Shown here piece by piece: positions 2,726 through 56,018 of a DNA stretch of 64,000 nucleotides. The translations under genes and the position numbers were made by a program. Every line of letters begins with the position of its first letter. The stretch's first letter is position 1. Below the pieces are notes generated by a model that was not told the origin of the DNA, did no database searches, and worked only from the letters and a program-made list of their open reading frames with translations. This DNA comes from the human T2T-CHM13v2.0 reference genome, Homo sapiens. Where the stretch lies: NCBI RefSeq assembly GCF_009914755.1, contig NC_060932.1, one strand, 5' to 3'.

Positions 2726-4544
2726 GCTCAACTTCAAGATGGCTGACTAGAGACATCTGGTACTCGCCTCTTCCACAAAGAAGAACCAAAATAGCAAGCA
2801 GATAATCACACTTCAAATATATCCTCTAAGAGAGAACATTGGAATTCTACAGAGAAGTGACAGCAAACACCTAAAGCAAGGAAGGCAAGGGAAACGAAGC
2901 AAGGAAGACAAGGGAAACAAAGCAGTCTGCTCCACTTGGATGGGCTGGGAGTTGGGAGAGGGTCCCCAGCATGGGAAAACGGTTCATGAGTGACCCCCAG
3001 CAGTCCACATTACAAGGCTATCATGACCAAAATAGCATGGCATTGGTATAAAAACAGACACTTAGATCAATAGAGCAGAACAAAGAACACAGAAATAAAC
3101 CCATGTATTACATTCAACTGATTTTGACAAAGGTGCCAAGAACATACACTGGAGAAAGGAAACCCTCTTCAATAAATGGTTCTGGGAAAATTGGCTATCC
3201 ATATGCAGAAGAATAAAACTGGACCCCTATCATTCATTATACACAAACATCAACTCAAGACATATTAAAGAGTTAAATGTAAGACCTGAAACTATAAAAC
3301 TACTAGAAGAAAACATAGGGAAAACACTTAAGGACATTGGTTTATGCAGATTTTATGGTTAAGCCCTCAAAAGCACAGGCAACAAAAACAAAAATAGATG
3401 AATGGGACTACATTAAACTAAAAAGCTTCTTTAGTCAAAAGAAACAATTAATAGAATGAAGAGACACTTTGTTGAATGGGAGAAAATATTTGCAAACTAT
3501 TCATCCAACAAGAGACTAATATCCAGAATTTACAAGGAACTCAAACAATTCAAGAGTAAAAAAATAACCCCATTAAAAAGTGGACCAAGGGCATGAATAG
3601 ACATTTGTCAAAAAAAGACATATGGATGAGCAATAGGCATATGAAAAAATGCTCAACATCACTAATTATTAGGGAATTGGCAATCAAAACCACAATGACA
3701 TATCACCTTACCATTGTTAGGATGGCTACTATTAAAAAAGACAAAAAATAACAGGTGCTGGTAAGGATGTGGAGAAGAGAAAACTCGTATACACTCTTAG
3801 TGGGAATGGAAATTAGTACAGCCACTATGGAAAACAGTATGGAGATTTCACAAAAAACCATAAATAAAACTATCATACACTTCAGCATCCCACTCCTGAG
3901 TATTTATCCAAAGAAAAATAAATTAGTATATCAAAGAGATACCTGTACTCCCATGTTTATCGCAGCACTATTCATGATAGCAAAGATATACAACCAGCTT
4001 AACTGCCCATCAGTGTATGAATGGATAAAGAAAAGGTGGCATATGTATACAGTGGAATACTATTTGGACATGAAAAATGAAATCATGTTATTTACAGCAA
4101 TAGGAATGGAACTGCAGGTCATTATGTTAAGTGAGATAAGCCAGACACAGAAAGACAAATTTCAAGTTCTCACCAATATGTGGGAGCTAAAATGTGTGAT
4201 CTTATGGAGGTCCGGAGTAGAATGATAGTTACCAGAGACTGTGAAGGATGTGGGGTGATGGGATATGGAGAAGTTGGTTAATGTGTACAAATATACAGCT
4301 GGATAGAAGGAATAAGTTCTAATGTTCATAACAGAGTAGGGTGAGTATAGTTAGCAACAATGTATTGTATATTTCAGAATAGCTAGAAGAGAACACTTGA
4401 AATATTCTCAACACATAGAAATGATCAATGTTCAAGGTGATGGACACCCCAAATACCCTGCCTGAATTATTACACAGTTTATCCATTTAACACAATATCA
4501 CATGTACCTCATAAATATGCACAAATATTTGTATCAATAAAAAA
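2726..4544 (+). mobile_element. L1MA-type element, 5'UTR start joined to distal ORF2 and 3'UTR (large internal deletion near 3010)
   Basis: 'cttcaagatggctgactagag' L1M 5' start; ORF2 C-terminal peptide 'TCTPMFIAALF' (ORF 3755-4225); L1MA 3'UTR with aataaa near 4537. Confidence 0.8.
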
Positions 4545-4999: not shown

Positions 5000-6730
5000 G
5001 AAATAAAGTCTAAATTACAAAAATCCCAGAGCAGAAGGGATTTAAATGAAAATATAGTAAGGTACATGAAGAAAAAGCCAAAAGAATATAATTAATTTTT
5101 AGAAGTGGAAAGAATTACATTGAAAGAAATACATGATAAGCAAAGAAGATAATATACATACATATAATGGTCCATGAAATAGAGAAATCAGTGGAAAATA
5201 ATTAAAATCTAAAACTATTATTCAAGAAAACTTTCTGGAAATAAAAGACCTAAATCTACATATTCTAGGGTCTACTGTATACCCGATAACTGATGTATTC
5301 TAATAAATCTAATAGACTTCAGAGACTGAGAAAACAATCTTCAGGGCATCAGGACAAAGGTGTCATTCAGAAAGGGAAGAAAACATGGTTGACAAAAGAC
5401 TTATTGGCAATCACACACAAAGCAAGAAAACAGTAGACTGGTATTTTAAACAGTCTTTACGAGTGAGAACCAACAAATATAATATTCAGCTAAGCTATTG
5501 TTATTTACAAAGGAAAGTCAATCTAGTTGACCACTGACTTCTTGACAACTACATATGAAGTAATACAACACCAGAGCAACCTGTACTCCCATGTTTATCG
5601 CAGCACTATTCACAGTAGCAACCCAAATGCCCACCAATGGTGGATTGGATAAAGAAAATGTACCTATACACCATGGACTACTACGCAGCCGTGAAAAGAA
5701 CAAAATCTGGTGCATATGTACCATGGAACACTGCACAATGATAAAAAAAAAAAAATCTAAATCATGTCCTTTGCAGCAACATGGAAGCAGCTGGAGACTA
5801 TTATCCTAAGTGAATTAATGCCAAAACAGGAAGCCAAATACCACATATTCTCACATAAATGAGAGCTTAACTGCAAACACATGGACATGAAGATGGCAGC
5901 AATAGACACTGGGGACTCGTAAAGGGAGTCCTTAAAAAGGAGAGAATGAAAACAAACAAATTAAATCACCAACTCAAAAAGCTAAAAAGTTAACCAAGGA
6001 AATAAAGAGAAAACATAAGAAAGAAAATAATAAAGATTAAAATAAAATTTGTTGAGTTAGAAAATAGAAAAATAATTGAACTAAAATTAACAAAATAGAT
6101 CATCGGGTAACTTGAGAATAAAGGGAGGAAAGGACAAATTCACAGAATTTAAAATGATGATTTTAAATCCAAAAATAAAATGTATCATTTCCTAAGAAAA
6201 TAAAATTAAACCAAATCTGTCACAAAAGATCTAGAAAGATTAGAAGGATTAATTTCCATAGAGGAAACAGATAAAAGAATCACAAAAGTTACCTATCTCA
6301 GGAAATTCTTAAGTGAATTTTACCAAAACTCTAAAAGACAAATAATTCCAATATTACATATATTGTTATGGAATTTATAATGAAAACTTCTACTCTTCTT
6401 ATGGAAAAAGTATAATGTTGATAACTAATTCTAAGAAAGATAGCATCAAAAAGAAAAAATAAAAACCTTCAGATCCATATCACTTATTAATGTTGATGGA
6501 AAAATTCTGAATCAAATACAAGCAATAAAATAATAAATTGTATCACTTATTCTAGGAATAAGAATGATTCAACATTTAAAATTAAATAAAATAACACGTT
6601 AATAGATACAATGAGACAATCATTATTATTTCCATATGTATAAAAAGGACTTTGATAAAATTTAATGCTGCTATAAAACAGAGTAAAATAGAATGATAGA
6701 TATATATTTATTACAATAAATTGTATGCAC
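5000..6730 (+). mobile_element. Degenerate old L1 ORF1/ORF2 remnants with an L1P 3' fragment (~5570-5930)
   Basis: 'attcaagaaaactttctggaaataaaagac' (ORF1-like), '[10 protein letters not shown]' peptide, 'tcacttattaatgttgatggaaaaattctg' (ORF2-like). Confidence 0.6.
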
Positions 6731-29599: not shown

Positions 29600-29815
29600 T
29601 TTTTTTTTTTATTATACTTTAAGTTTTAGGGTACATGTGCACATTGTGCCAGTTAGTTACATATGTATACATGTGCCATGCTGGTGCGCTGCACCCACTA
29701 ACTCGTCATCTAGCATTAGGTATATTTCCCAATGCTATCCCTCCCCCCTACCCCCACCCCATCACAGTCCCCAGAGTGTGATATTCCCCTTCCTGTGTCC
29801 ATGTGATCTCATTGT

Positions 29816-33671
<3,856 letters not shown>

Positions 33672-33707
33672 TTAGTTGATGCAGTTTCTTCCTGGTCTCG
33701 ATGGTCT

Positions 33708-34721
33708 TTACATTTTGGCATGATTTTGCAGTGGCTGGTAGGGGTTGTTCCTTTCCATGTTTAGCACTTCCTTCAGGAGCTCTTTTAGGGCAGGCCTGGT
33801 GGTGACAAAATCTCTCAGCATTTCCTTGTCTGTAAAGGATTTTATTTCTCCTTCACTTATGAAGCTTAGTTTGGCTGGATATGAAATTCTGGGTTGAAAA
33901 TTCTTTTCTTTAAGAATGTTGAATATTGGCCCCCACTCTCTTCTGGCTTGTAGGGTTTCTGCCGAGAGATCTGCTGTTAGTCTGATGGGCTTCCCTTTGA
34001 GGGTAACCCGACCTTTCTCTCTGGCTGCCCTTAACATTTTTTCCTTCATTTCAACTTTAGTGAATCTGACAATTATGTGTCTTGGAGTTGCTCTTCTCGA
34101 GGAGTATCTTTGTGGCGTTCTCTGTATTTCCTGAATCTGAACGTTGGCCTGCCTTGCTAGATTGGGGAAGTTCTCCTGGATAATATCCTGCAGAGTGTTT
34201 TCCAACTTGGTTCCATTGTCCCCGTCACTTTCAGGTACACCAATCAGACGTAGATTTGGTCTTTTCACATAGTCCCATATTTCTTGGAGGCTTTGCTCAT
34301 TTCTTTTTATTCTTTTTTCTCTAAACTTCCCTTCTCACTTCATTTCATTCATTTCATCTTCCATTGCTGATACCCTTTCTTCCAGTTGATCGCATCGGCT
34401 CCTGAGGCTTCTGCATTCTTCACGTAGTTCTCGAGCCTTGGTTTTCAGCTCCATCAGCTCCTTTAAGCACTTCTCTGTATTGGTTATTCTAGTTATACAT
34501 TCTTCTAAATTTTTTTCAAAGTTTTCAACTTCTTTGCCTTTGGTTTGAATGTCCTCCCGTAGCTCAGAGTAATTTGATCGTCTGAAGCCTTCTCTCAGCT
34601 CGTCAAAGTCATTCTCCATCCAGCTTTGTTCTGTTGCTGGTGAGGAACTGCGTTCCTTTGGAGGAGGAGAGACGCTCTGCGTTTTAGAGTTTCCAGTTTT
34701 TCTGTTCTGTTTTTTCCCCAT
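33708..34721 (-). pseudogene. L1-A ORF1 with premature stop
   Basis: MGKKQNRK... 128 aa then TGA (CGA>TGA) at 34335-34337; remainder 34268-33708. Confidence 0.95.
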
Positions 34722-35176
34722 CTTTGTGGTTTTATCTACTGTTGGTCTTTGATGATGGTGATGTACAGATGGGTTTTCGGTGTGGATGTCCTTTCTGTTT
34801 GTTAGTTTTCCTTCTAACAGAGAGGACCCTCAGCTGCAGGTCTGTTGGAATACCCTGCCGTGTGAGGTGTCAGTGTGTCCCTGCTGGGGGGTGCCTCCCA
34901 GTTAGGCTGCTCAGGGGTCAGGGGTCAGGGACCCACTTGAGGAGGCAGTCTGCCTGTTCTCAGATCTCCAGCTGCATGCTGGGAGAACCACTGCTCTCTT
35001 CAAAGCTGTCAGACAGGGACATTTAAGTCTGCAGAGGTTACTGCTGTCTTTTTGTTTGTCTGTGCCCTGCCCCCAGAGGTGGAGCCTACAGAGGCAGGCA
35101 GGCCTCCTTGAGCTGTGGTGGGCTCCACCCAGTTCCAGCTTCCCGGGGGCTTTGTTTACCTAAGCAAGCCTGGGCA

Positions 35177-35392
35177 ATGGTGGGCGCCCCTCCCCCAGCC
35201 TCGCTGATGGCTTGCAGTTTGATCTCAGACTGCTGTGCTAGCAATCAGCGAGATTCCGTGGGCATAGGACCCTCCGAGCCAGGTGTGGGATATAGTCTCG
35301 TGGTGCGCCGTTTTTTAAGCCGGTTTGAAAAGCGCAATATTTGGGTGGGAGTGACCCGATTTTCCAGGTGCATCCGTCACCCCTTTCTTTGA
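35177..35392 (+). CDS. L1-A antisense ORF0, intact 71 aa
   Basis: MVGAPPPASLMACSLISDCCASNQRDSVG...RCIRHPFL*, matching length and sequence of primate L1 ORF0; expression unknown. Confidence 0.75.
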   Translation: MVGAPPPASLMACSLISDCCASNQRDSVGIGPSEPGVGYSLVVRRFLSRFEKRNIWVGVTRFSRCIRHPFL

Positions 35393-36359
35393 CTCGGAAA
35401 GGGAACTCCCTGACCCCTTGCGCTTCCCAGGTGAGGCAATGCCTCGCCCTGCTTCGGCTCGCGCATGGTGCACGCACCCACTGGCCTGCGCCCACTGTCT
35501 GGCACTCCCTAGTGAGATGCACCCGGTACCTCAGATGGAAATGCAGAAATCACCCGTCTTCTGCGTCGCTCACACTGGGAGCTGTAAACCGGAGCTGTTC
35601 CTATTCGGCCATCTTGGCTCCTCCCCCCTTTTTGTCCTTTCATCGTTTCTTCTATTTGATGTCATGGTAATTGTCAACTATCATGGCACTAGTGTGAGTG
35701 TCACTTAGCATGAAAATTAGGTTATAATGAAGCTGGAGGTTCCACAGAAATCAAGTGAGCCCTCTTGGATTCCACCAGTCTTAGCTATTCTGGTAACAAG
35801 AGGGAACTTTTGACCTCAGGCATTCTGCTTCCTAAAGATAACCGGAGTTGAGGTGGGCTAGAAATTCGCCTTGGTCACATAGTTATTGCACTAGATAACA
35901 TGAAGAGACTAAGTAATCTTCAGAACCACACTCAGATAGGATGTGCCACAAATGTGTGAAATAACAGTTAAGGAATTTAAAATAACCATGATTAATATAT
36001 TAAGGGATCTAATGGAAAAAGTAGACAAAAGCCAGAACAGATGAGTAATACAAGAAGAGAGGTAGACTCAAAAAAGAATTAAGTACAAGAAATAAAATCT
36101 CTGTAATAGAAATGAATGTCTTTAATAAGTAGATTTGACGTGGTCGAAGAAAGACTCATGGAGCCTGAAGATAAATCAATAAAAACATTTTATTTATATG
36201 TAACATAATTGTTTATATATGAATTTATCAACAAAAAGAATCAACAAAAATCTTCTAGAACTTATAGGCAATTATAACAAGGTTGTAGGACACAAGGCTA
36301 ATATTAAAAAGTCAAGTATTTTCTTGTATACCATATTAAATTATATACATATAAAATTG

Positions 36360-39300
36360 TCTTGCAAGTCGGATAATAGCTCAGCTACAGTACAATACGG
36401 CACCAGGCAAAGTCCTGAGGCCTCCATTCCAGGTTTTAGCTCCCAGATGACATTTCTAGACATACCCCGGCCAGAAGGCAACCTGCTTCTTTAAAGGAAA
36501 GGGCCCTGTCATGGAAGAATTTTCCACCTGCTGCCTAAAGAGTCCCAGTGGTATTGGTCTCAGGGGTGCTTGTGTCACCCCTCTCATACCTCCAAGCAAC
36601 TCAACACACAGAGAGAAGGACATTGCTCTTTTGGGGGAATGTAAAAGAAGAGAACAAGAGTCTCTGCCTGATATTCCAGAGAATTCTTCCAGACCTTATG
36701 CAAGACCACCAAAGCAGTAAACCTATGAGTCTGCAACAGCCACAGCACTACTGAGATGGAGATGACCCCTAAAGCAGACATGGCTGCAGTAAGCAAAAAC
36801 ATAGATCACAGCGCTGAAATCCCTTCAAATACCTGGAAAAACTCCCAGGAAGGACAGGTACAAACAAGCCCAGACTGTAAAGACTACAGTAAATATCTAA
36901 TTCTTCAATGCCCAGGTACAGTCGAACATCCACAGGCATCAAGACCATCTAGGAAAACAAGACCTCACTAAACAATCTAAATAAGCAACCAGTGACCAAT
37001 CCCAGAAAGAAAGAGAATGATGTGACCTTTCAGAAAAATAATCCAAAATAGCTGTTTTGAGGAAGCTCAGTGAAATCTAAGAAAACACGAAGAAGAAGTT
37101 CAGAATTCTATCAGATTAATTTCACAAAGAGATTTAAATAATTAATAAGAATGAAGCAGACATTTTGGAGACGAAAAATACAATTGGCATACTGAAGAGT
37201 GCTGAAAGGGCTTTTGATTAAATTTAACATTTGTTCATGATAAAAACCCTCAAAAAACTAGACATAGAAGGAGTGTATCTCAACACAATAAAAGCTATAT
37301 ACAATAGACTCACTAATAGTATCATACTAAATAGGGAAAAATTGAAAACTTTTCCTTTATGATCTGGAACAAAATGAGGATGCCCATTTTCACCACTGTT
37401 ATTCCACATTTTACTGGAAGTTTTAGCTAGAGTAATCAGTCAAGAGAAAAAATAAAAGACATCCAAATTAGAAAGAATGAAGTCAAATTATCTCTGTTTG
37501 CAGCTGATACGATCTTATATTTTTAAAAACCCTAAAAACTTGACCAAAAATGTATTGAAATTGATAAACAAATTTAGTTGGATATACAAATTCAGAAGGA
37601 TATAAAATCAACACACAAAAATTAGTAGCATTTCCATATGCCAGCAGTGAACAATCTGCAAAAGTAATTTAAAAACAGTAATCTTGTTTACGATAGCTAC
37701 AAATAAAATACCCAGGAATTAAGCTAACCAAAGAAGTGAAAGATCTTTACAATGAAAACTATAAAACATTGATGAAAGAAATTAAAGAGAACATAAAAAA
37801 TGGAAATATATTCCATGTTCATGGATTGGAAAAATCAATATTGTTAAAATGTCCATACTACCCAAAACAATCTACTGATTTAATGCAATTCCTATCAACA
37901 TACCAATGACATGGTTCACAGAAAAGGAAAAAAAAATCCTAAAATTTATACTGAGCCACAAATGACCCAAAATAACCAAAGCTAGCCAAAAAAGACTAGT
38001 TCTTATTTGTTATTCTCAGCAAAAAGAATTAAACTGGAGGAATCACATTACCTGACTTCAAATTATACTACAGACCTATAGTAACCAAAATGCATGGTAC
38101 TGGCATAAAAAATAGACACATGAACCAATAGAATAGAATGGAGAATCCAGAAATAAATCCATACATCTACAATGAATTCATTTTTGAGAGAGCTGTCAAG
38201 AATTTACATAGGGGAAAAGATAGTCTCTTCAATCAATAGTGCTGGGAAAGCTCAATATCCATATGAAGAAGAGTGAAACTAGATCCCTATCTCTTGCTGT
38301 ATACAAAAATCAAATCAACATGGGTAAAGATTTATATATAAGACCTCAAAGTATGAAACTACTACAAGAAAACATTGACTAGGGCAAAAATTTGAATAGA
38401 CATTTCTCAAAATAAGATATACAAATGACAGACATGTAAAAATGCTCAACATCACTGATCATCAGAGAAATGCAAATCAAAACCACAATTAGATATCCTT
38501 TTACCCAGTTAAAATGACTTTTAGCCAAAAGATGGACAACAATAAATGCTGACAAGGATGTGAAGAAAAGGGAACACTTGTACACTGTTGATGGGAATGT
38601 AAATTAGCACAACCACTATGGAGAGAAGTTTGGTGGTTCCTTAAAAGCTAAAAATAGAACTACCAAATGATTCAGCAGTCTCACCTCTAGGTATTCACTG
38701 AAAAGAAAGGAAATCAGTATATTGAAGAGATATCTGCACTCCTACATTTATTGCAGGACTATTTACAATAGTCGAGATCTAGAAGCAACCTAAGTGTCCA
38801 TCAACAGATGAATGAAGAAAGAAAATTTGGTACATATATACAATGGAGTACTATTCAGCTATATAAAAAAAATGAGATCTTGTCATTCGCAATAAAAGGA
38901 TAGAACTGGAGATCATTATGTTAAATAAAATAAGCCAGGCACAGAAAGACAAACTTCACATGTTCTCATTTGTTTGTAGGTGCTAAAAAAACTAAACCAA
39001 TTGAACTCACAGAGATCGATAGTAGAATGAGGGTTACCAGAAGTTAGGAAGGGTACTCATGTAGGGTCAGAGAAGTAGGATGGTTAATGTGTGCAAAAAT
39101 ATAGTTAAATGAAATGAATGAAAACTAGTATTTGATAGCACAACAGGGTGACTGTAGTCAACACTAATTTATTGTACCTTTTAGAATAACTAAAGAGTAT
39201 AATTGTATTGTTTAAAACACAAAGTAAGAATAAATGCTTGAGGTATTGGATACCCCATTTCCCCTGATATGATGATTACTCATTATATGCCTGTATCAAA

Positions 39301-41561: not shown

Positions 41562-42098
41562 TTAAAGTAAGATTTTAATAATAGTAGAAACCAGGAGTGA
41601 GCTCTCTGTCTTAACTCCACAATTTTTCTTTAAATTTAAAACTATGGAGTTTGAGCCAAGATGGCCGAATAGGAACAGCTCCGGTCTACAGCTCCCAGTG
41701 TGAGCGATGCAGAAGACGAGTGATTTCTGCATTTCCATCTGAGGTACTGGGTTCATCTCACTAGGGAGTGCCAGACAGTGGGGGCAGGACAGTGGGTGCA
41801 GCGCACCGTGCATGAGCAGAAGCAGGGTGAGGCATTGCCTCACTCGGGAAGCACAAGGGGTCAGGGAGTTCCCTTTCCTGGTCAAAGAAAGGGGTGACAG
41901 ATGGCACCTGGAAAATTGGGTCACTCCCACCCTAATACTGCACTTTTCCAACGGGCTTAAAAAATGGTGCACCAGGAGATTATATCCCGCACATGGCTCG
42001 GAGGATCCTACGCCCACGGAGTCTCGCTGATTGCTAGCACAGCAGTCTGAGATCAAACTGCAAGCCATCAGCGAGGCTAGGGGAGGGGCGCCCGCCAT
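41562..42098 (-). CDS. L1-B ORF0-initiated antisense ORF, 178 aa, reading out into flanking DNA
   Basis: MAGAPPLASLMACSL... open through the L1 5' end to a stop at 41562; expression unknown. Confidence 0.45.
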   Translation of the reverse strand: MAGAPPLASLMACSLISDCCASNQRDSVGVGSSEPCAGYNLLVHHFLSPLEKCSIRVGVTQFSRCHLSPLSLTRKGNSLTPCASRVRQCLTLLLLMHGALHPLSCPHCLALPSEMNPVPQMEMQKSLVFCIAHTGSCRPELFLFGHLGSNSIVLNLKKNCGVKTESSLLVSTIIKILL

Positions 42099-42681
42099 TG
42101 CCCAGCCTTGCTTAGGTAAACAAAGCAGCCGGGAAGCCGGAACTGGGTGGAGCCCACCACAGCTCAAGGAGGCCTGCCTGCCTCTATAGACTCCACCTCT
42201 GGGGGCAGGGCACAGACAAACAAAAAGACAGCAGTAACCTCTGCAGACTTAAATGTCCCTGTCTGACAGCTTTGAAGAGAGCAGTGGTTCTCCCAGCATG
42301 CAGCTGGAGATCTGAGAACAGGCAGACTGCCTCCTCAAGTGGGTCCCTGACCCCTGACCCCTGAGCAGCCTAACTGGGAGGCACCCCCCAGTAGGGGCAG
42401 ACTGACACCTCACACGGCCAGGTACTCCTCTGAGACAAAACTTCCAGAGGAAAGTTCAGAGAGCAGCATTCACGGTTCATGAAAATCCGCTGTTCTGCAG
42501 CCACCGCTGCTGATACCCAGGTAAACAGGGTCTGGAGTGGACCTGTAGCAAACTCCAACAGACCTGCAGCTGAAGGTCCTGTCTTTTAGAAGGAAAACTA
42601 ACAAACAGAAAGGACATCCACACCAAAAACCCATCTGTACATCACCATCATCAAAGACCAAAAGTAGATAAAACCACAAAG

Positions 42682-43697
42682 ATGGGGAAAAAACAGAGCA
42701 GAAAAGCTGGAAACTCTAGAAAGCAGAGTTCCTCTCCTCCTCCAAAGGAACGCAGTTCCTCACCAGCAATGGAACAAAGCTGGAAGGAGAATGACTTTGA
42801 CAAGTTGAGAGAAGAAGGCTTCAGATGATCAAACTACTCCGAGCTACAGGAGGAAATTCAAACCAAAGGCAAAGAAGTTAAAAATTTGAAAAAAATTTAG
42901 ACAAATGTATAACTAGAATAACCAATACAGAGAAGTGCTTAAAGGAGCTGATGGAGCTGAAAGCCAAGACTCGAGAACTACGTGAAAAATGCAGAAGCCT
43001 CAGGAACTGATGCAATCAACTGGAAGAAAGGGTATCAGTGATGGAAGATGAAATGAATGAAAAGAAGCGAGAAGGGAAGTTTAGAGAAAAAAGAATAAAA
43101 AGAAACAAACAAAGCCTCCAAGAAATATGGGACTATGTGAAAAGACCAAATCTACATCTGATTGGTGTACCTGAAAGTGATGGGGAGAATGGAACCAAGT
43201 TGGAAAACACTCTTCAGGATATTATCCAGGAGAACTTCCCCAATCTAGCAAGGCAGGCCAACATTCAGATACAGCAAATGCAGAGGATGCCACAAAGATA
43301 CTCCTCGAGAAGAGCAACTCCAAGACACATAATTGTCAGATTCACCAAAATTGAAATGAAGGAAAAAATGTTAAGGGCAGCCAGAGAGAAAGTTCAGGTT
43401 ACCCACAAAGGGAAGCCCAACAGACTAACAGCGGATCTCTCGGCAGAAACTCTACAAGCCAGAAGAGAGTGGGGGCCAATATTCAACATTCTTAAAGAAA
43501 AGAATTTTCAACCCAGAATTTCATATCCAGCCAAACTAAGCTTCATAAGTGAAGGAGAAATAAAATACTTTACAGACAAGCAAATGCTGAGAGATTTTGT
43601 CACCACCAGGCCTGCCCTAAAAGAGCTCCTGAAGGAAGTGCTAAACATGGAAAGTAACAATCAGTACCAGCCACTGCAAAATCATGCCAAATTTTAA
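42682..43697 (+). pseudogene. L1-B ORF1, disrupted
   Basis: ATGGGGAAAAAACAGAGC start; early TGA stops; C-terminal 219-aa ORF 43038-43697. Confidence 0.93.
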
Positions 43698-43745
43698 AGA
43701 CCATCGAGGCTGGGAAGAAAATGCATCAACTAAAGAGCAAAATAA

Positions 43746-47843
<4,098 letters not shown>

Positions 47844-48266
47844 AAAATGAGAACACATGGACACAGGAAGGGGAACATCACACTCTGGGGACTGTTGTGG
47901 GGTCGGGGGAGGGGGGAGGGATAGCATTAGGAGATATATCTAATGCTAAATGACGAGTTAATGGGTGCGGCACACCAGCATGGCACATGTATACATATGT
48001 AACTAACCTGCAGATTGTGCACATGTACCCTAAAACTTAAAGTATAATAATAATAAAACTAAATTTAAAAAATAAATAAAAATAAAAAAATTAAAAAATA
48101 AGTTTAAAACTATCCCAAAATTAAAAGTTTAATTAAGAAAAAGTGAAGGTCTCACTCCCACACCTTACAGGTAGCTCTTGTTGTCTTTCCTCTCAAACAT
48201 AATTCAATCTATGTTTTCGTGCACCTTGTCAAATATTATATATAGGATATACTGAACAAAATATTA

Positions 48267-49191: not shown

Positions 49192-51927
49192 AAATATTCA
49201 ACTTTAAGAAGATCAAAGAGGCAGTATCTTGTTAAAGGAACTTTATCAATAGAATAATAGCTTTAAATAGAAGTATGTAAGTGCAAGAATGTCTGACTAG
49301 GTCTAGCCACTGGAAACTGACAAAGCTATCTATTTAGTCACGCATGCCTGCAGCAACTTTTCCCTTTGGAAAAGTTCGACAGGCTAAAAATCAAGACAAA
49401 TGCTTTTTAAGAAATCAAAGATAGGATAAGGAAAACCTAAAAGGGTCAAACTCTTCAAATATGGGGAGACTATAAAACTCAACCTGAGGTTACAATTGGC
49501 AGCTACTAGCTCTCCTTTCACTAGGGTTTAGAGAAATACTGGAGACATTTGTATTTTGTGGCTTTGTGTGTATATTGTGTTTGCTCATCATTGTTTCTGT
49601 CAAAAGTTATAGAGACAAAGATTGATTTTCATTCCAGAATATCTTAAATTGTGCCAAATGAGTTCAGCTGTGAATGGATACAATAAAGACAAGCAATAAT
49701 AAATAAACTATTATATTTCTGGGTAGTAGAAGTGGTTCCAGCTGTTGGTCTAATTCTATCTATGTAGAAAACTGCTTTCAGCAAACTCATTCTAAATTGC
49801 TTGACTAGCTTGAATGATTGAGATCTCATTTGAGAGCATACACAATGTGATTCATAACAATTAGGTCAGAGTATGACAAAGTAAATGTTAAGATAGACAA
49901 TTTCTTTAAAGAATTTACATTGAAGTGAAGAGAAAAAGAATGTTTATCAAAATTTAATTGAATATTAACAAAAACTAGAAATTCACAGGTACTAAATTTG
50001 ACTTGAAATATTTAGTCAAAGCAATTTATTTTTATTAAATGTTTGTGGAATATGTGTATAATAAATTGCTGATGTTTATTATTTTTATCTATTTACAGAA
50101 GAACCTCCACTCTTGGGGATCACAATATATCAACAACATTAATATAATCAATAATGTCTTTAATTTCATGAAATCAAGTTGATCCCTTCACACCAATCAG
50201 ACCAACCTTTATTAAACGTTTGAGTTTTACATCATGCCCTGGAAAAAAATAGATTAGAATTTTGTCAAATCTAGAGAATCACAAAATACAAGTGGGAATT
50301 TAGAAGATTTTAAAGCTTCAGGCGACATTAAAGATGATATAACCAATTCACTTTGTGTTACAGATAAGGATGCTGGCTGTCAGCATTCTTATCTATAAAA
50401 AACAAAATTGCATCACTCAATATAGGTAATTAAACAGCTGGTCCTTCAATGCTGCCCCCTTCAATAACTAGTTCCACCCACTTCTGTTACAACATGCTTC
50501 TTTCTGTGAATGTGCCTCCACAAAAGGCTAGTTTTACCTGTTGAAGATGACAGTCAGAATTTCTCAACGTTTGGTTTGTAGAACAGCATCAGAGTCAGCC
50601 AGGTGTTCATGGGTGTTTGTTAAAATGCATATCCCTGGGGCCAACTCCAGACCTCCTAAATCAGAACCTGGGAAGTTGTACTAAAAAAGCCACAAGATTA
50701 TTTTTCTGCATTCTTTTTGTCATTAATTGCATTAATTTAGTGTTTATTTATCCTGTCTTATTATAACGCACCCAGAGGGCTTATCAAAAATATGAAATTC
50801 CAAAACTGCACAGAAATACACAAGCACACATGTATGCCCACACAAACGAATGCAGGTTTTAAAATGGTGAAAACTGAACACAATTGTAGTCTAGTTAACA
50901 ATAATGTACCGATGTCAACTTTCTGGGTTTTTTTAACTTCCTGGTTTTAGTATTTTTCTGCAGCTATGTAAAACAAAACTATTAGAGGAAACCAGATAAA
51001 GAGTACACAACATCCTTTGTATAAATATCTAGGCACTCACTGGGAGTTTCTGATTTAGTAAATTAAGTTTAAATACAGAAAGTGTGTGTTTGTATATGTC
51101 TATGTATATGCTTGTATGTATATGTGTCTCTGTGTGCTTGTACCTTAGTTTGTGTTTCCATGTATGTGCAATTGATCCTTAAACAACATGGGTTTAAACT
51201 GCAGGTTCATATGTATATGGATTTTTTTCAATACATGTATTGGAAAATTCTATAAAGCACTTTTGACAATTTGAAGAAACTTATATATGAACCATATAGC
51301 CTAGAAACACCAAAAATATTAACATAAAGTTAAAAATGTCATGAAAGCATAACATATATGTAGATACAAGTCTATTTTATCATTAACTACCATAAAATGT
51401 ATACAAGTCTATTATTAAAAGTTAAGATTTATCAAAACTTCTGCATTCACCCACTAAAACTGTACATGGCAATATTTGCAGTCAAGAGAAATGTAAACAA
51501 ACTTAAAGGTTCAGTTTTAAATCATGATTGCATAAAATTAACTGTAGTACATACTGTACTATTATAATAATTCCACAGGAACCTCCTGATGCTGTTGCAG
51601 TGAGCTCAAGTGTTGTATCTGTGTAAAACACCTTATGACACGAATCATCTCCAGGTGAACAGTTCATCACTCCAGTTAAATTGTGTATCATGGTAAAAAG
51701 TGATTGCTTACTGTCCTTGCATATTTTGCATCATTTTTAGTGCAATATCATAAACCTTGATAATTCAGTGGGATCCATTCAAATTGCTATTAGTGATGCT
51801 GAAAATGCTCCCAAGAAGCAAATTAAAGTCGTGACATCATAGAAAAAGTTGAATTGCTTGATATGTACCATAAACTGAGGTCTGCAGCTGCAAAAATTCA
51901 TTGCAAAATGTGAAAAGGAGATTTATG

Positions 51928-52480
51928 TTTTTTTGTCCTTGTGATAGTTTGCTGAGAATGATGGTTTCCAGCTTCATCCATGTCCCTACAAAGGACATGA
52001 ACTCATCCTTTTTTATGGCTGCATAGTATTCCATGGGTATATGTGCCACATTTTCTTAATCCAGTCTATCATTGATGGACATTTGGGTTGGTTCCAAGTC
52101 TTTGCTATTGTGAATAGTGCTGCAATAAACATATGTGTGCATGTGTCTTTATAGCAGCATGATTTATAATCCATTGGGTATATACCCAGTAATGAGATGT
52201 CTGGGTCAAATGGAATTTCTAGTTCTACACTGCATGTTCTCACTCATAGATGGGAACTGAACAATGAGAACACTTGGACACAGGGTGGGGAACATCACAC
52301 ACTGGGGCCTGTCGTGGGGTGGGGGGATGGGGGAGGGATAGCATTAGGAGATATACCTAACATAATGACGAGTTAATGGGTGCAGAACACCAACATGGCA
52401 CATGTATACATATGTAACAAACCTGCACGTTGTGCACATGTACCCTAGAACTTAAAGTATAATAAAATAAGAAAAGAAAA
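51928..52480 (+). mobile_element. 5'-truncated L1PA (PA4-6-like) with 5' inversion (51928-52227 inverted)
   Basis: Antisense ORF2 end followed by sense 3'UTR; the two pieces are adjacent in L1 apart from a few lost bases. Confidence 0.93.
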
Positions 52481-52502
52481 TATTAGACCAAAATAGATTT
52501 GA

Positions 52503-52774
<272 letters not shown>

Positions 52775-52954
52775 TAAACTCTGACTTTTGAAAAGGTTTT
52801 CTAAAACTGTTTATTTTGACTTATTTTTAAACAATCAACAATAAGTATTTCACTGTGTACCTATTAGTATGTCTAACACAATGCTAAGTAAGGGGAATTA
52901 TGAGAAGCTTATCACGTGATCTTGTCTTTAAATAGTTTATAACCTAGCTACCTG

Positions 52955-53640
<686 letters not shown>

Positions 53641-56018
53641 GACAGTAAGTTCTTGGAGAACAAGGTGCCTCTCTGGCTCCTCTTTGCATCTCTGGTAGCA
53701 TCTGTTGCGGTGCTTAACCACAGCAGGGGCTCAATATGAACGCACTTGTGGGCTGGAAGGGAAGGGGCTGCAGCACCTCAGCTGCTCAGCAGCTGGAGAT
53801 GCAGGGCATGGTGAGGATGAAGGCGAGGAAGGGATCCAGGTCGGATTTGAGGGCAACTTTTTTCTGTTTTATTATTTCAGGATTTTCTTTCGCTACTCCT
53901 TAGACATCTGGCTTTGACAGCAAAGGACAGAAAGGTCTGCCTGAAGCTGGCAGCAGATTCTCCCAATACTCCCTTCGAGCCCTGTGTTTTAATATATACA
54001 TAATTAATTAATTAAAAGTCTTACCTATAAAAAAAGAAAAGGAGATTTATGAAGCCATCACATTGTAGTTACATCATCACACTTAAAAATTTGCACTTTT
54101 TGCAAAATACCTTTTTATCTCATCTTGAAAACACAGCTTCATGTGGGTGCAGGATTGCTATAAGAAAGGCATACCTATAGACTCTAAATGATTCAAGAAA
54201 AAGCAAAGTTATTACACAACAACTTGAAGCAAATGAAAGGTGAAGGATCTAAGTCTGGATAATTCAATGCCAGCAAAGGATGGTTTGATAATTTTAGAAA
54301 ACAGTTTAGCTTAAAAGATGTCAAGATAACAGGCAAAAATCAGCTACTGCCAAATAAAAGAAAGCAGATGGGTTCCCAGACACCACTAAGAAAATCAATG
54401 AGGGGAAATAATCTGCCTAAACAAGTTTTTACTACAGATGAAAGTGCCCTGTTTTAGAAAAAACAAATGCCACAAAGAACATTTATCAGTAAGGCAGAGA
54501 AATGATCAGCAGGATTTAAGGAAGGAAGGGATAGGCTAACTCTAGTGTTTTGTGCAAAGACAGGTTGATGATCAGGACGACCCACATCTGTTATATAAAG
54601 CTGCTAACCCATGAGCCTGGTAGAGAAAAGATAAACACCAGCTGCAAGTTTATGACTGTACAACAAAAACATCTGGACAACGAGAATGCTTGTTCTGATT
54701 GGTTCAATTATTTCTTTTTCCCTGAAATCAGGAAGTAACTTTCCATTAAGGAAAAACTTCCTAAAGTTTTGTTCATATTGAACAATGTCCTTAACCAACC
54801 AGAACCCCATGAGTTCAACACTGAAGATATAAAAGTTGTCTACTTGCCCCTAAACACTTCTCTAATACAGCCTCTAGATCAGGGGGTCCTACGATTCTTA
54901 AGGTTTATTGCACATGATACTCTATGGAGGGGATTGTCAATGCTATGGAAGAGAACCTCTACAGGGAGAACATCATGAAAGTCTGGGAGGGTTACACCAC
55001 TGAAGATGCCGTTGTTGTTAGAGGATTGCCATTGTTGTTTCATGGGTTGTTATAAACCCACAAAAGCCATCAAGCCCCAAAACAATAAATTTCTACTAGA
55101 GAAAACTTTCCAGATACTGTGACTTCACAGGATTTACAACAGAGCCGATAAAGGAAATCATGAAAGAGACTGTGGATATGGCAAAAAAAAAAAAAAAAAA
55201 AAAGGCAGGGGATGAAGGGTTTGAAGATACAGATCTCGGAGAAGTTCAAGAGCTAACAGCCATGACACCAGAGGCAGAAGAGGTGGAGGAATTAACAGAT
55301 GACTTGATAGAGAAGATAGAGAAGAGTGCTTCTGAATGAGTGCCAGACAATGAAGAAGAAGATGTAGAAGAAGCAGTGTCAAAAACAAAGTACATTAGAC
55401 AATTGGTAGAAGGATTCCCATCATTCAAAACTGCTTTTGACTTCCTTAATAACGTGAATCTCTCTATGACACAGGCACTAAAACTAAAGCAAATGTTAAT
55501 AGAATTTGCACCATACACAAACATTTTCAGAAAAATTAAAAAGCAAAAACATCAGAGAGACATGGCAATGTATTTCCATACAGTTACACAAAGTGGGCTT
55601 CCCTCTCCTGCTCCCCGCTTCCACTTCCGCCACCTCTTCTGCCTCTGCGAGCCATGAGACAGCAAAATTAATCCCTCCTCTTCCTCCTCCTCCTCAGCCT
55701 ACTCAATCTGAAGCCCATTAGGATAAAGACCTTTATGATGGTCCATTTTCACTTAATTAATAGTAAGTATATTTTCTGTTCCTTATGATTTTCTTAATAA
55801 CATTTTCTTTTCTCTAGCTAACTTTATTGTAAGAATACAGTAAATAATATATATGACATACAAAATGTATGTTAATTGACAGTTCATGTCATGGGTAAGG
55901 CTTCCAGTCAATAGTAGGCTATAAGTAATTAAGTTTTGGGGGAGTCAAAGGCATACACAGAATTTTGACTGTGCAGTGTAGTAAGTGCCCTTTACTTCTG
56001 TGTTGTTCAAAGGCTGGC

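What the first reader, a model, noticed from the sequence alone, without database searches (positions are those of the whole stretch)
51912..54051. One retrotransposition event combining a twin-priming inversion with a ~1.55-kb 3' transduction inside Tigger2
Seen: a perfect 16-bp TSD encloses an inverted L1 piece (51928-52227), a sense L1 3' end with A-rich tail (to 52480), ~1.55 kb of non-L1 DNA, ATTAAA (54011-54016) and A7; Tigger2 resumes right after. The cargo includes a MARNA-like remnant probably older than Tigger2 and a GC-richer stretch (53700-53990) unlike the surroundings. Known: twin priming and 3' transduction are L1 mechanisms. Inference: the cargo is a copy of DNA downstream of a source L1 elsewhere.
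Basis: partly seen in the sequence, partly recalled or inferred. Interest (0 to 1): 0.75.

Follow-up and report, generated by a model that had tools for sequence, protein, structure and literature searches.

The report
Parentless L1 transduction of BHMT2 exon
A jumping-gene (L1) insertion on chromosome 8 carries a 1.56-kb backwards copy of the last exon of the chromosome 5 gene BHMT2; the parent element that likely made it is missing from the source site, so this is a well-preserved fossil of known mechanisms, not a new one.

Summary
Confirmed, and the source is found. A unique, exact 16-bp duplication encloses an inverted L1 piece, a sense L1 3' end and 1,557 nt that match chr5:79,571,088-79,569,550 (minus strand) in one block, both Alus included (84 substitutions in 1,520 aligned sites). 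That block is the antisense of BHMT2 exon 8 plus 49 nt of intron 7; the GC-richer stretch is that exon. No L1 abuts the block at the source. The full-length L1 5.9 kb away is not the parent: it has its own TSD and flank, is 9.4% divergent, shares no derived base, and a joint clade is rejected (AU p = 0.04). The copy starts exactly at an endonuclease-type nick site and ends 14 nt after ATTAAA. Best reading: read-through from an L1 that once sat antisense in or just past the BHMT2 3' UTR and was later lost ('parentless' transduction), roughly 25-30 My ago (inferred). Corrections: the A7 is also native Tigger sequence, so it is weak evidence of a tail, and MARNA is unverified. Inversion plus transduction is common (30% in one study). 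New member of a known kind.

The parts
51169..51927 (+). Left arm of the interrupted pogo/Tigger-type DNA transposon (Tigger2 by recall)
   Evidence: 952 first-look candidates, 40 scored; the 39 non-self hits are 74-78% identical; collinear with the right arm in L041, L043, L051
51912..51927 (+). Left TSD, 16 bp exact (up to 23 bp if the A7 is target DNA)
   Evidence: native Tigger sequence, present once in intact copies
51928..52227 (-). Inverted L1 piece, L1 positions 5463-5762 (ORF2 end)
   Evidence: 96-97% identical to the best genomic L1 copies; coordinates
52227..52473 (+). Sense L1 3' end (positions 5767-6001), its AATAAA (52461-52466) and a short A-rich tail
52474..54030 (+). Transduced DNA = chr5 (C5):79,571,088-79,569,550 minus strand; antisense of BHMT2 exon 8 plus 49 nt of intron 7
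   Evidence: single BLAST block, 1,566 columns, 92.1% including gaps; 84 substitutions in 1,520 sites
52500..52774 (-). Alu 1, carried over from the source
   Evidence: 18 of 273 sites differ from the source copy; 26 differences from other Alus are shared with it
52986..53310 (-). Alu 2 with its own 14-bp TSD (52986-52999 / 53297-53310), carried over from the source
   Evidence: 17 differences from other Alus are shared with the source copy
53500..53640 (+). Possible mariner (MARNA-like) remnant, unverified
   Evidence: frame reads YSPALGLNDF, resembling a recalled mariner motif; no hit in PDB, Pfam or elsewhere in the genome
53900..53981 (-). Coding part of BHMT2 exon 8, open to its stop; reads ...[12 protein letters not shown] against ...RPFCPSLSKPDF at the source; acceptor AG kept at 53983-53982
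54011..54016 (+). Cryptic poly(A) signal ATTAAA, 14 nt before the end of the source match
   Evidence: 3.6% of positions in the source region lie 10-30 nt after such a hexamer
54029..54035 (+). A7: tail remnant or target-derived A-run (first two A also match the source)
54036..54051 (+). Right TSD
54036..55397 (+). Right arm of the Tigger-type element (transposase remnant); its true end lies further right and was not mapped

Best explanation
The 2.1-kb insert is one TSD-bounded L1 insertion with an inverted 5' part and a 1.56-kb antisense copy of BHMT2's last exon, likely made by read-through from a parent L1 that is absent from the source site in this genome. Inferred steps: (1) an L1 inserted antisense at chr5:79,571,088/089, likely inside the BHMT2 3' UTR; (2) its transcript ran past the L1 poly(A) signal and a first ATTAAA, through exon 8, and was cut 14 nt after an ATTAAA in intron 7; (3) the L1 endonuclease nicked the A-rich site in the chr8 Tigger element and reverse transcription started at the RNA 3' end; (4) the second target strand primed at L1 position about 5763, copying 300 nt in reverse, and the two cDNAs joined over 1 shared base (twin priming); (5) the chr8 copy persisted while the parent allele was lost. 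Age is likely about 25-30 My.
For: Shown: unique exact TSD; one source block with both Alus; source gene is BHMT2 by its C-terminus and its BHMT neighbour 45 kb on; no L1 sequence in the 5.9 kb upstream of the block; the block starts at the base next to a TCTT/A nick motif, and 3.5% of positions lie within 3 nt of such a motif; it ends 14 nt after ATTAAA (3.6% by chance); the L1 piece has 19 differences from the panel majority in 535 nt, of the same order as half the 5.5% cargo divergence, as one event predicts; the breakpoint lies about 240-250 nt from the L1 3' end, the main inversion hotspot in PMC13009371; the copy ends in V like orangutan BHMT2, whereas human, chimpanzee and gorilla have F, so it likely predates that change. 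Parentless transductions are described and common in dogs (17 of 18, PMC7980453; 24 of 27, PMC13141329).
Against: The parent L1 is not observed, and no other primate genome or human haplotype could be searched. No sibling insertion with the same flank was found (2 exact hits, chr5 and chr8; 4 one-mismatch hits, equal to the 4 control hits). The nick motif was defined after seeing the junction, which is A-rich and ambiguous by a few bases. The A7 is not independent evidence of polyadenylation. Where the BHMT2 transcript ends was not shown by any search; four AATAAA lie on the sense strand of the region, the last one 65 nt beyond the junction. The age rests on a recalled substitution rate and one amino-acid site; source-branch change may be slowed by constraint (Alu 2: 16 chr8-only against 6 source-only changes; Alu 1: 8 against 7).
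Confidence: 0.82

Rival explanations
1. RNA-level chimera: reverse transcription began on an antisense transcript of the BHMT2 3' end and switched template to (or the RNA was ligated to) an unrelated L1 RNA, so no L1 ever sat at the source.
For: No L1 at the source. Template switching and RNA ligation are described routes to L1 chimeras (PMC13174262).
Against: The chimeras described in the passages read put the foreign RNA 5' of the L1; here it is 3'. The junction falls just after the L1's own tail and at a nick-type motif in the source, which a switch would not need. It also needs an unexplained antisense promoter.
Confidence: 0.08
2. The full-length L1 at chr5:79,577,005-79,583,015 is the parent; a 7.5-kb read-through lost 5.9 kb by splicing or deletion.
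For: It is full length, has the right orientation and lies 5.9 kb from the cargo start.
Against: 9.4% divergent from the chr8 piece, against 4.1-7.9% for 28 of 29 panel copies (panel chosen for likeness to the inverted piece, so biased; L026 is 12.6% because its 3' end is replaced); 0 columns where the two share a base against the panel majority. It groups with the two window L1s at 99/95 support, and a clade with the chr8 piece is rejected, AU p = 0.0395 (L026 left out). Its own 12-bp TSD flank is absent from the chr8 junction, and the 5.9 kb is not in the window apart from Alu-type hits.
Confidence: 0.03
3. The parent L1 was fixed at the source and later removed precisely (recombination between its TSDs), or two insertions occurred in turn at the chr8 site (orphan cargo first, L1 second).
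For: Neither can be excluded from one genome. The sequence after the L1 tail resembles the TSD at 11 of 16 positions (read).
Against: The sequence after the tail matches the chr5 source at 14 of 16, while the outer TSDs are identical, so no third TSD copy exists. No duplicated scar of 10 nt or more lies around the source junction. Precise excision is rare (own knowledge).
Confidence: 0.07

Closest known systems
Partnered L1 3' transduction with 5' inversion (PMC13009371, passages read)
   Same: L1 3' end plus unique flank, TSD, inversion breakpoint near 250 nt from the L1 3' end; 30% of partnered transductions in that study were inverted.
   Different: Those are L1Hs events, median 445 bp; this one is old and germline, with a 1.56-kb cargo.
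'Parentless' 3' transductions (PMC7980453, PMC13141329, passages read)
   Same: The cargo maps to one locus with no adjacent L1.
   Different: In dogs the parent is thought to be still dimorphic; here, at 5.5% divergence, it was probably lost long ago. The source is a gene's terminal exon.
Twin priming (Ostertag and Kazazian 2001, as described in PMC2912911, passages read)
   Same: Inverted 5' piece directly inside the TSD, small deletion at the priming point, microhomology at the junctions.
   Different: No difference found.
Exon-bearing transductions in CHM13 (Hoyt et al., 10.1101/2021.07.12.451456, passages read: 183 high-confidence L1 3' events; 295 events of all kinds with coding sequence)
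   Same: Coding sequence moved by a retroelement.
   Different: Here the exon is antisense to the L1 and landed where no gene is annotated. Whether their Table S13 lists this locus could not be seen.

Membership tests
L1 TPRT insertion | Target site duplication | tested here: met
   16 bp exact, unique in the window, single in intact Tigger copies
L1 TPRT insertion | Endonuclease-type nick site (TT/AAAA family, motif as given) | tested here: met
   nicked strand reads TTTTC/A for the 16-bp TSD, or a T-run/A if the A7 is target DNA
L1 TPRT insertion | Untemplated 3' poly(A) tail | tested here: inconclusive
   A7 present, but 18 of 20 intact target copies carry a similar A-run and two of the A match the source
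Twin-priming inversion | 5' piece is the adjacent upstream L1 segment in reverse, with a small loss or gain at the breakpoint | tested here: met
   L1 5463-5762 inverted, 5767-6001 sense, 4 nt lost
Twin-priming inversion | Microhomology at the junctions | tested here: met
   1 nt shared at 52227; the TSD 3' end matches the L1 antisense strand over about 2 nt; short, so weak on its own
L1 3' transduction | Non-L1 DNA between the L1 tail and the 3' TSD maps collinearly to another locus | tested here: met
L1 3' transduction | Poly(A) signal 10-30 nt before the cargo end | tested here: met
   ATTAAA 14 nt upstream; 3.6% by chance
L1 3' transduction | Progenitor L1 directly upstream of the source sequence | tested here: not met
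   none in this genome; nearest L1 excluded. This bars filing it as a transduction with an identified progenitor; it fits the parentless class
Parentless 3' transduction | Cargo source not adjacent to an L1 | tested here: met
   class as defined
Parentless 3' transduction | Parent L1 found at the site in another haplotype or species | not testable with these tools
   no relatives held for this genome
Processed pseudogene of BHMT2 | Spliced sense mRNA copy with the tail at the mRNA 3' end | tested here: not met
   antisense, keeps 49 nt of intron 7, lacks exon 7 (4.6 kb away at the source)
L1PA6/L1PA7, Tigger2, MARNA subfamily labels | Match to the Dfam/Repbase consensus | not testable with these tools
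   no repeat library; labels are recalled. Pfam supports only the pogo/Tigger class for the flank

The most novel reading that the evidence does not exclude
The chr8 copy is the only surviving record of an active L1 that sat antisense inside BHMT2's 3' UTR, 65 nt before the gene's likely poly(A) signal, and was purged because it disturbed the mRNA 3' end. Old parentless transductions like this one would let lost exonic L1 alleles be mapped tens of millions of years later, and this one also preserves the ancestral last residue of BHMT2.
Probability: 0.45. Interest if true: 0.45.

Novelty: new member of a known kind. Interest (0 to 1): 0.3.

Why it matters
It is a fully resolved, old example of L1 moving a complete terminal exon (acceptor, open coding end, stop and internal AATAAA sites kept on the chr8 minus strand) to another chromosome, and it pinpoints to the base where a now-missing L1 likely sat in or beside a gene's 3' UTR. 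That makes a precise, cheap test in primate assemblies. No function is shown: no gene is annotated in the window, and all mechanisms involved are known.

Tried and rejected
Full-length L1 5.9 kb upstream as parent: rejected. Processed pseudogene: rejected. Alu-Alu recombination joining the L1 to the cargo: rejected, since about 25 nt of unique source DNA lie between the L1 tail and Alu 1. A third TSD copy after the L1 tail: rejected. Sibling insertions with the same flank: none above control. MARNA: no hit in PDB at E up to 10, in Pfam (0 of 3 frames) or in the genome besides the source; left unverified. Pfam gave no hit for the short left Tigger flank or the inverted L1 piece (0 of 6 frames). 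The second chr5 hit (73%) is the paralogous BHMT exon, not a second source. Literature: BHMT2 + transduction + LINE-1 gave 4 papers, none relevant by title and abstract start; BHMT2 + retrotransposition gave 0; BHMT2 is absent from the main text and 6 supplementary files of PMC13174262; the primate section of PMC4516251 mentions no such L1. Szak 2003, Pickeral 2000 and Khan 2006 could not be read, and the supplements of the Hoyt preprint were not seen; any of these catalogues may list the locus.

Full report
Observation. The 16-mer at 51912-51927 recurs exactly at 54036-54051 and nowhere else in the window. Between the copies lie an inverted L1 piece, a sense L1 3' end, 1.56 kb of other DNA, ATTAAA and A7. 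Numbered on a 6.0-kb L1, the pieces are 5463-5762 (reversed) and 5767-6001; in most of the 29 genomic L1 copies compared they are neighbours 3-5 nt apart, and one base is shared at the inversion junction. This is the twin-priming anatomy described in PMC2912911 (passages).

Host element. The flanks are two halves of one DNA transposon. Of 14 copies fetched with the left flank, 3 carried the right flank in register; of the other 11, those printed continue with a different sequence, likely shorter deletion forms. The right flank matches Pfam HTH_Tnp_Tc5 and DDE_1; the name Tigger2 is recalled. In intact copies the TSD sequence occurs once and is preceded by an A-run: 18 of 20 copies have at least 5 A in those 7 nt and none ends in TGT. 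The A7 may therefore be target DNA and cannot be counted as a proven tail. The left arm is also about 35 nt shorter just before the TSD than L051.

Source. Two unique parts of the cargo each found one full-length match elsewhere, at chr5 (C5) 79.57 Mb, minus strand. The whole cargo, 52474-54030, aligns as one block to 79,571,088-79,569,550 with both Alus: 84 substitutions in 1,520 sites, K2P 0.058, non-CpG 64 of 1,463. On the minus strand the cargo encodes a BHMT-family C-terminus (E 1.8e-7). The source reads ...RPFCPSLSKPDF then stop, the end of BHMT2 in S2 Fig of PMC4516251 (supplement read); the 73% hit 45 kb further is the longer BHMT exon, as expected for the tandem pair (passages). So the cargo is the antisense of BHMT2 exon 8 plus 49 nt of intron 7 (boundary inferred from the AG and the paralog). 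This explains the GC-richer stretch.

The missing parent. The 5.9 kb upstream of the block gave no hit to the window's L1s. A full-length L1 in the right orientation lies at 79,577,005-79,583,015, but it has its own 12-bp TSD, is 9.4% divergent from the chr8 pieces against 4.1-7.9% for 28 of 29 panel copies, shares no base with them against the panel majority, and groups with the two window L1s (99/95), a clade with the chr8 piece being rejected at p = 0.0395 (one panel row with a replaced 3' end left out; the panel was chosen by likeness to the inverted piece). At the source the block begins at the base beside a TCTT/A motif of the L1 endonuclease type (3.5% of positions lie within 3 nt of such a motif, defined after the fact) and ends 14 nt after ATTAAA (3.6% by chance). 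Both fit a genomic L1 at that point whose transcript read through. A sense-strand AATAAA lies 65 nt beyond the junction, with three more inside the block; that the junction is inside the 3' UTR is inferred. No sibling insertion was found.

Age. Half of 5.5% per lineage points to about 25-30 My on a recalled primate rate. The L1 piece differs from the panel majority at 19 of 535 sites. PMC5554003 places L1PA8-6 at around 25 My (passage); the subfamily label for this piece is recalled. The copy ends in valine, as orangutan BHMT2 does, while human, chimpanzee and gorilla have phenylalanine: one site, consistent with copying before the African-ape change.

Mechanism. Shown: TSD, inversion geometry, source, exclusion of the nearby L1. 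Inferred: the parent's position and loss, polyadenylation at the cryptic signal, the order of priming, the age. Confidence 0.82; an RNA-level chimera (0.08), precise excision or two-step insertion (0.07) and the nearby L1 as parent (0.03) remain.

Comparison and novelty. In PMC13009371 30% of partnered transductions carry a 5' inversion, most often about 250 bp from the L1 3' end, where this breakpoint lies (passages). Parentless transductions are a named class (passages), and coding sequence in transductions is catalogued for CHM13 (passages). I found no paper on this locus in the searches made, but the older catalogues and the Hoyt supplement were not readable. Verdict: real, well resolved, a new member of a known kind; interest 0.3.

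Noticed in passing
window 3935-3983 and 5573-5621: A 34-nt exact (49-nt, 90%) direct repeat 1,638 nt apart in what reads like an old L1 3' region; longer than a usual TSD, so possibly a duplication or another insertion with unique DNA between.
   Followed up: partly
window 29603-35627 (minus) and 41653-48056 (plus): Two full-length L1s in opposite orientation, 95-96% identical to the chr5 L1 over most of their length; the second is interrupted by an Alu at about 45155-45400 and has a short AAAACTAT-type duplication at its ends. An older L1 (69-71%) lies at 37200-38968.
   Followed up: no
L007/L008, C5:79,577,005-79,583,015: Full-length L1 between BHMT2 and BHMT, antisense to both, with a perfect 12-bp TSD and broken ORF2 (open stretches of at most 386 codons).
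   Followed up: partly
window 54018-54025 (minus); L006 near C5:79,569,555: A consensus-like splice donor (AG/GTAAG) lies on the BHMT2 sense strand about 43 nt before the exon 8 acceptor, right at the cargo end; probably coincidence.
   Followed up: no
window 52490-52510: Alu 1 lacks its A-tail and last bases in both the chr8 copy and the source, so the loss predates the transduction.
   Followed up: no
L043:2231-2470: Another Tigger copy (C5:69.67 Mb) holds an L1 3' end about 70 nt from the equivalent site, in the opposite orientation.
   Followed up: no
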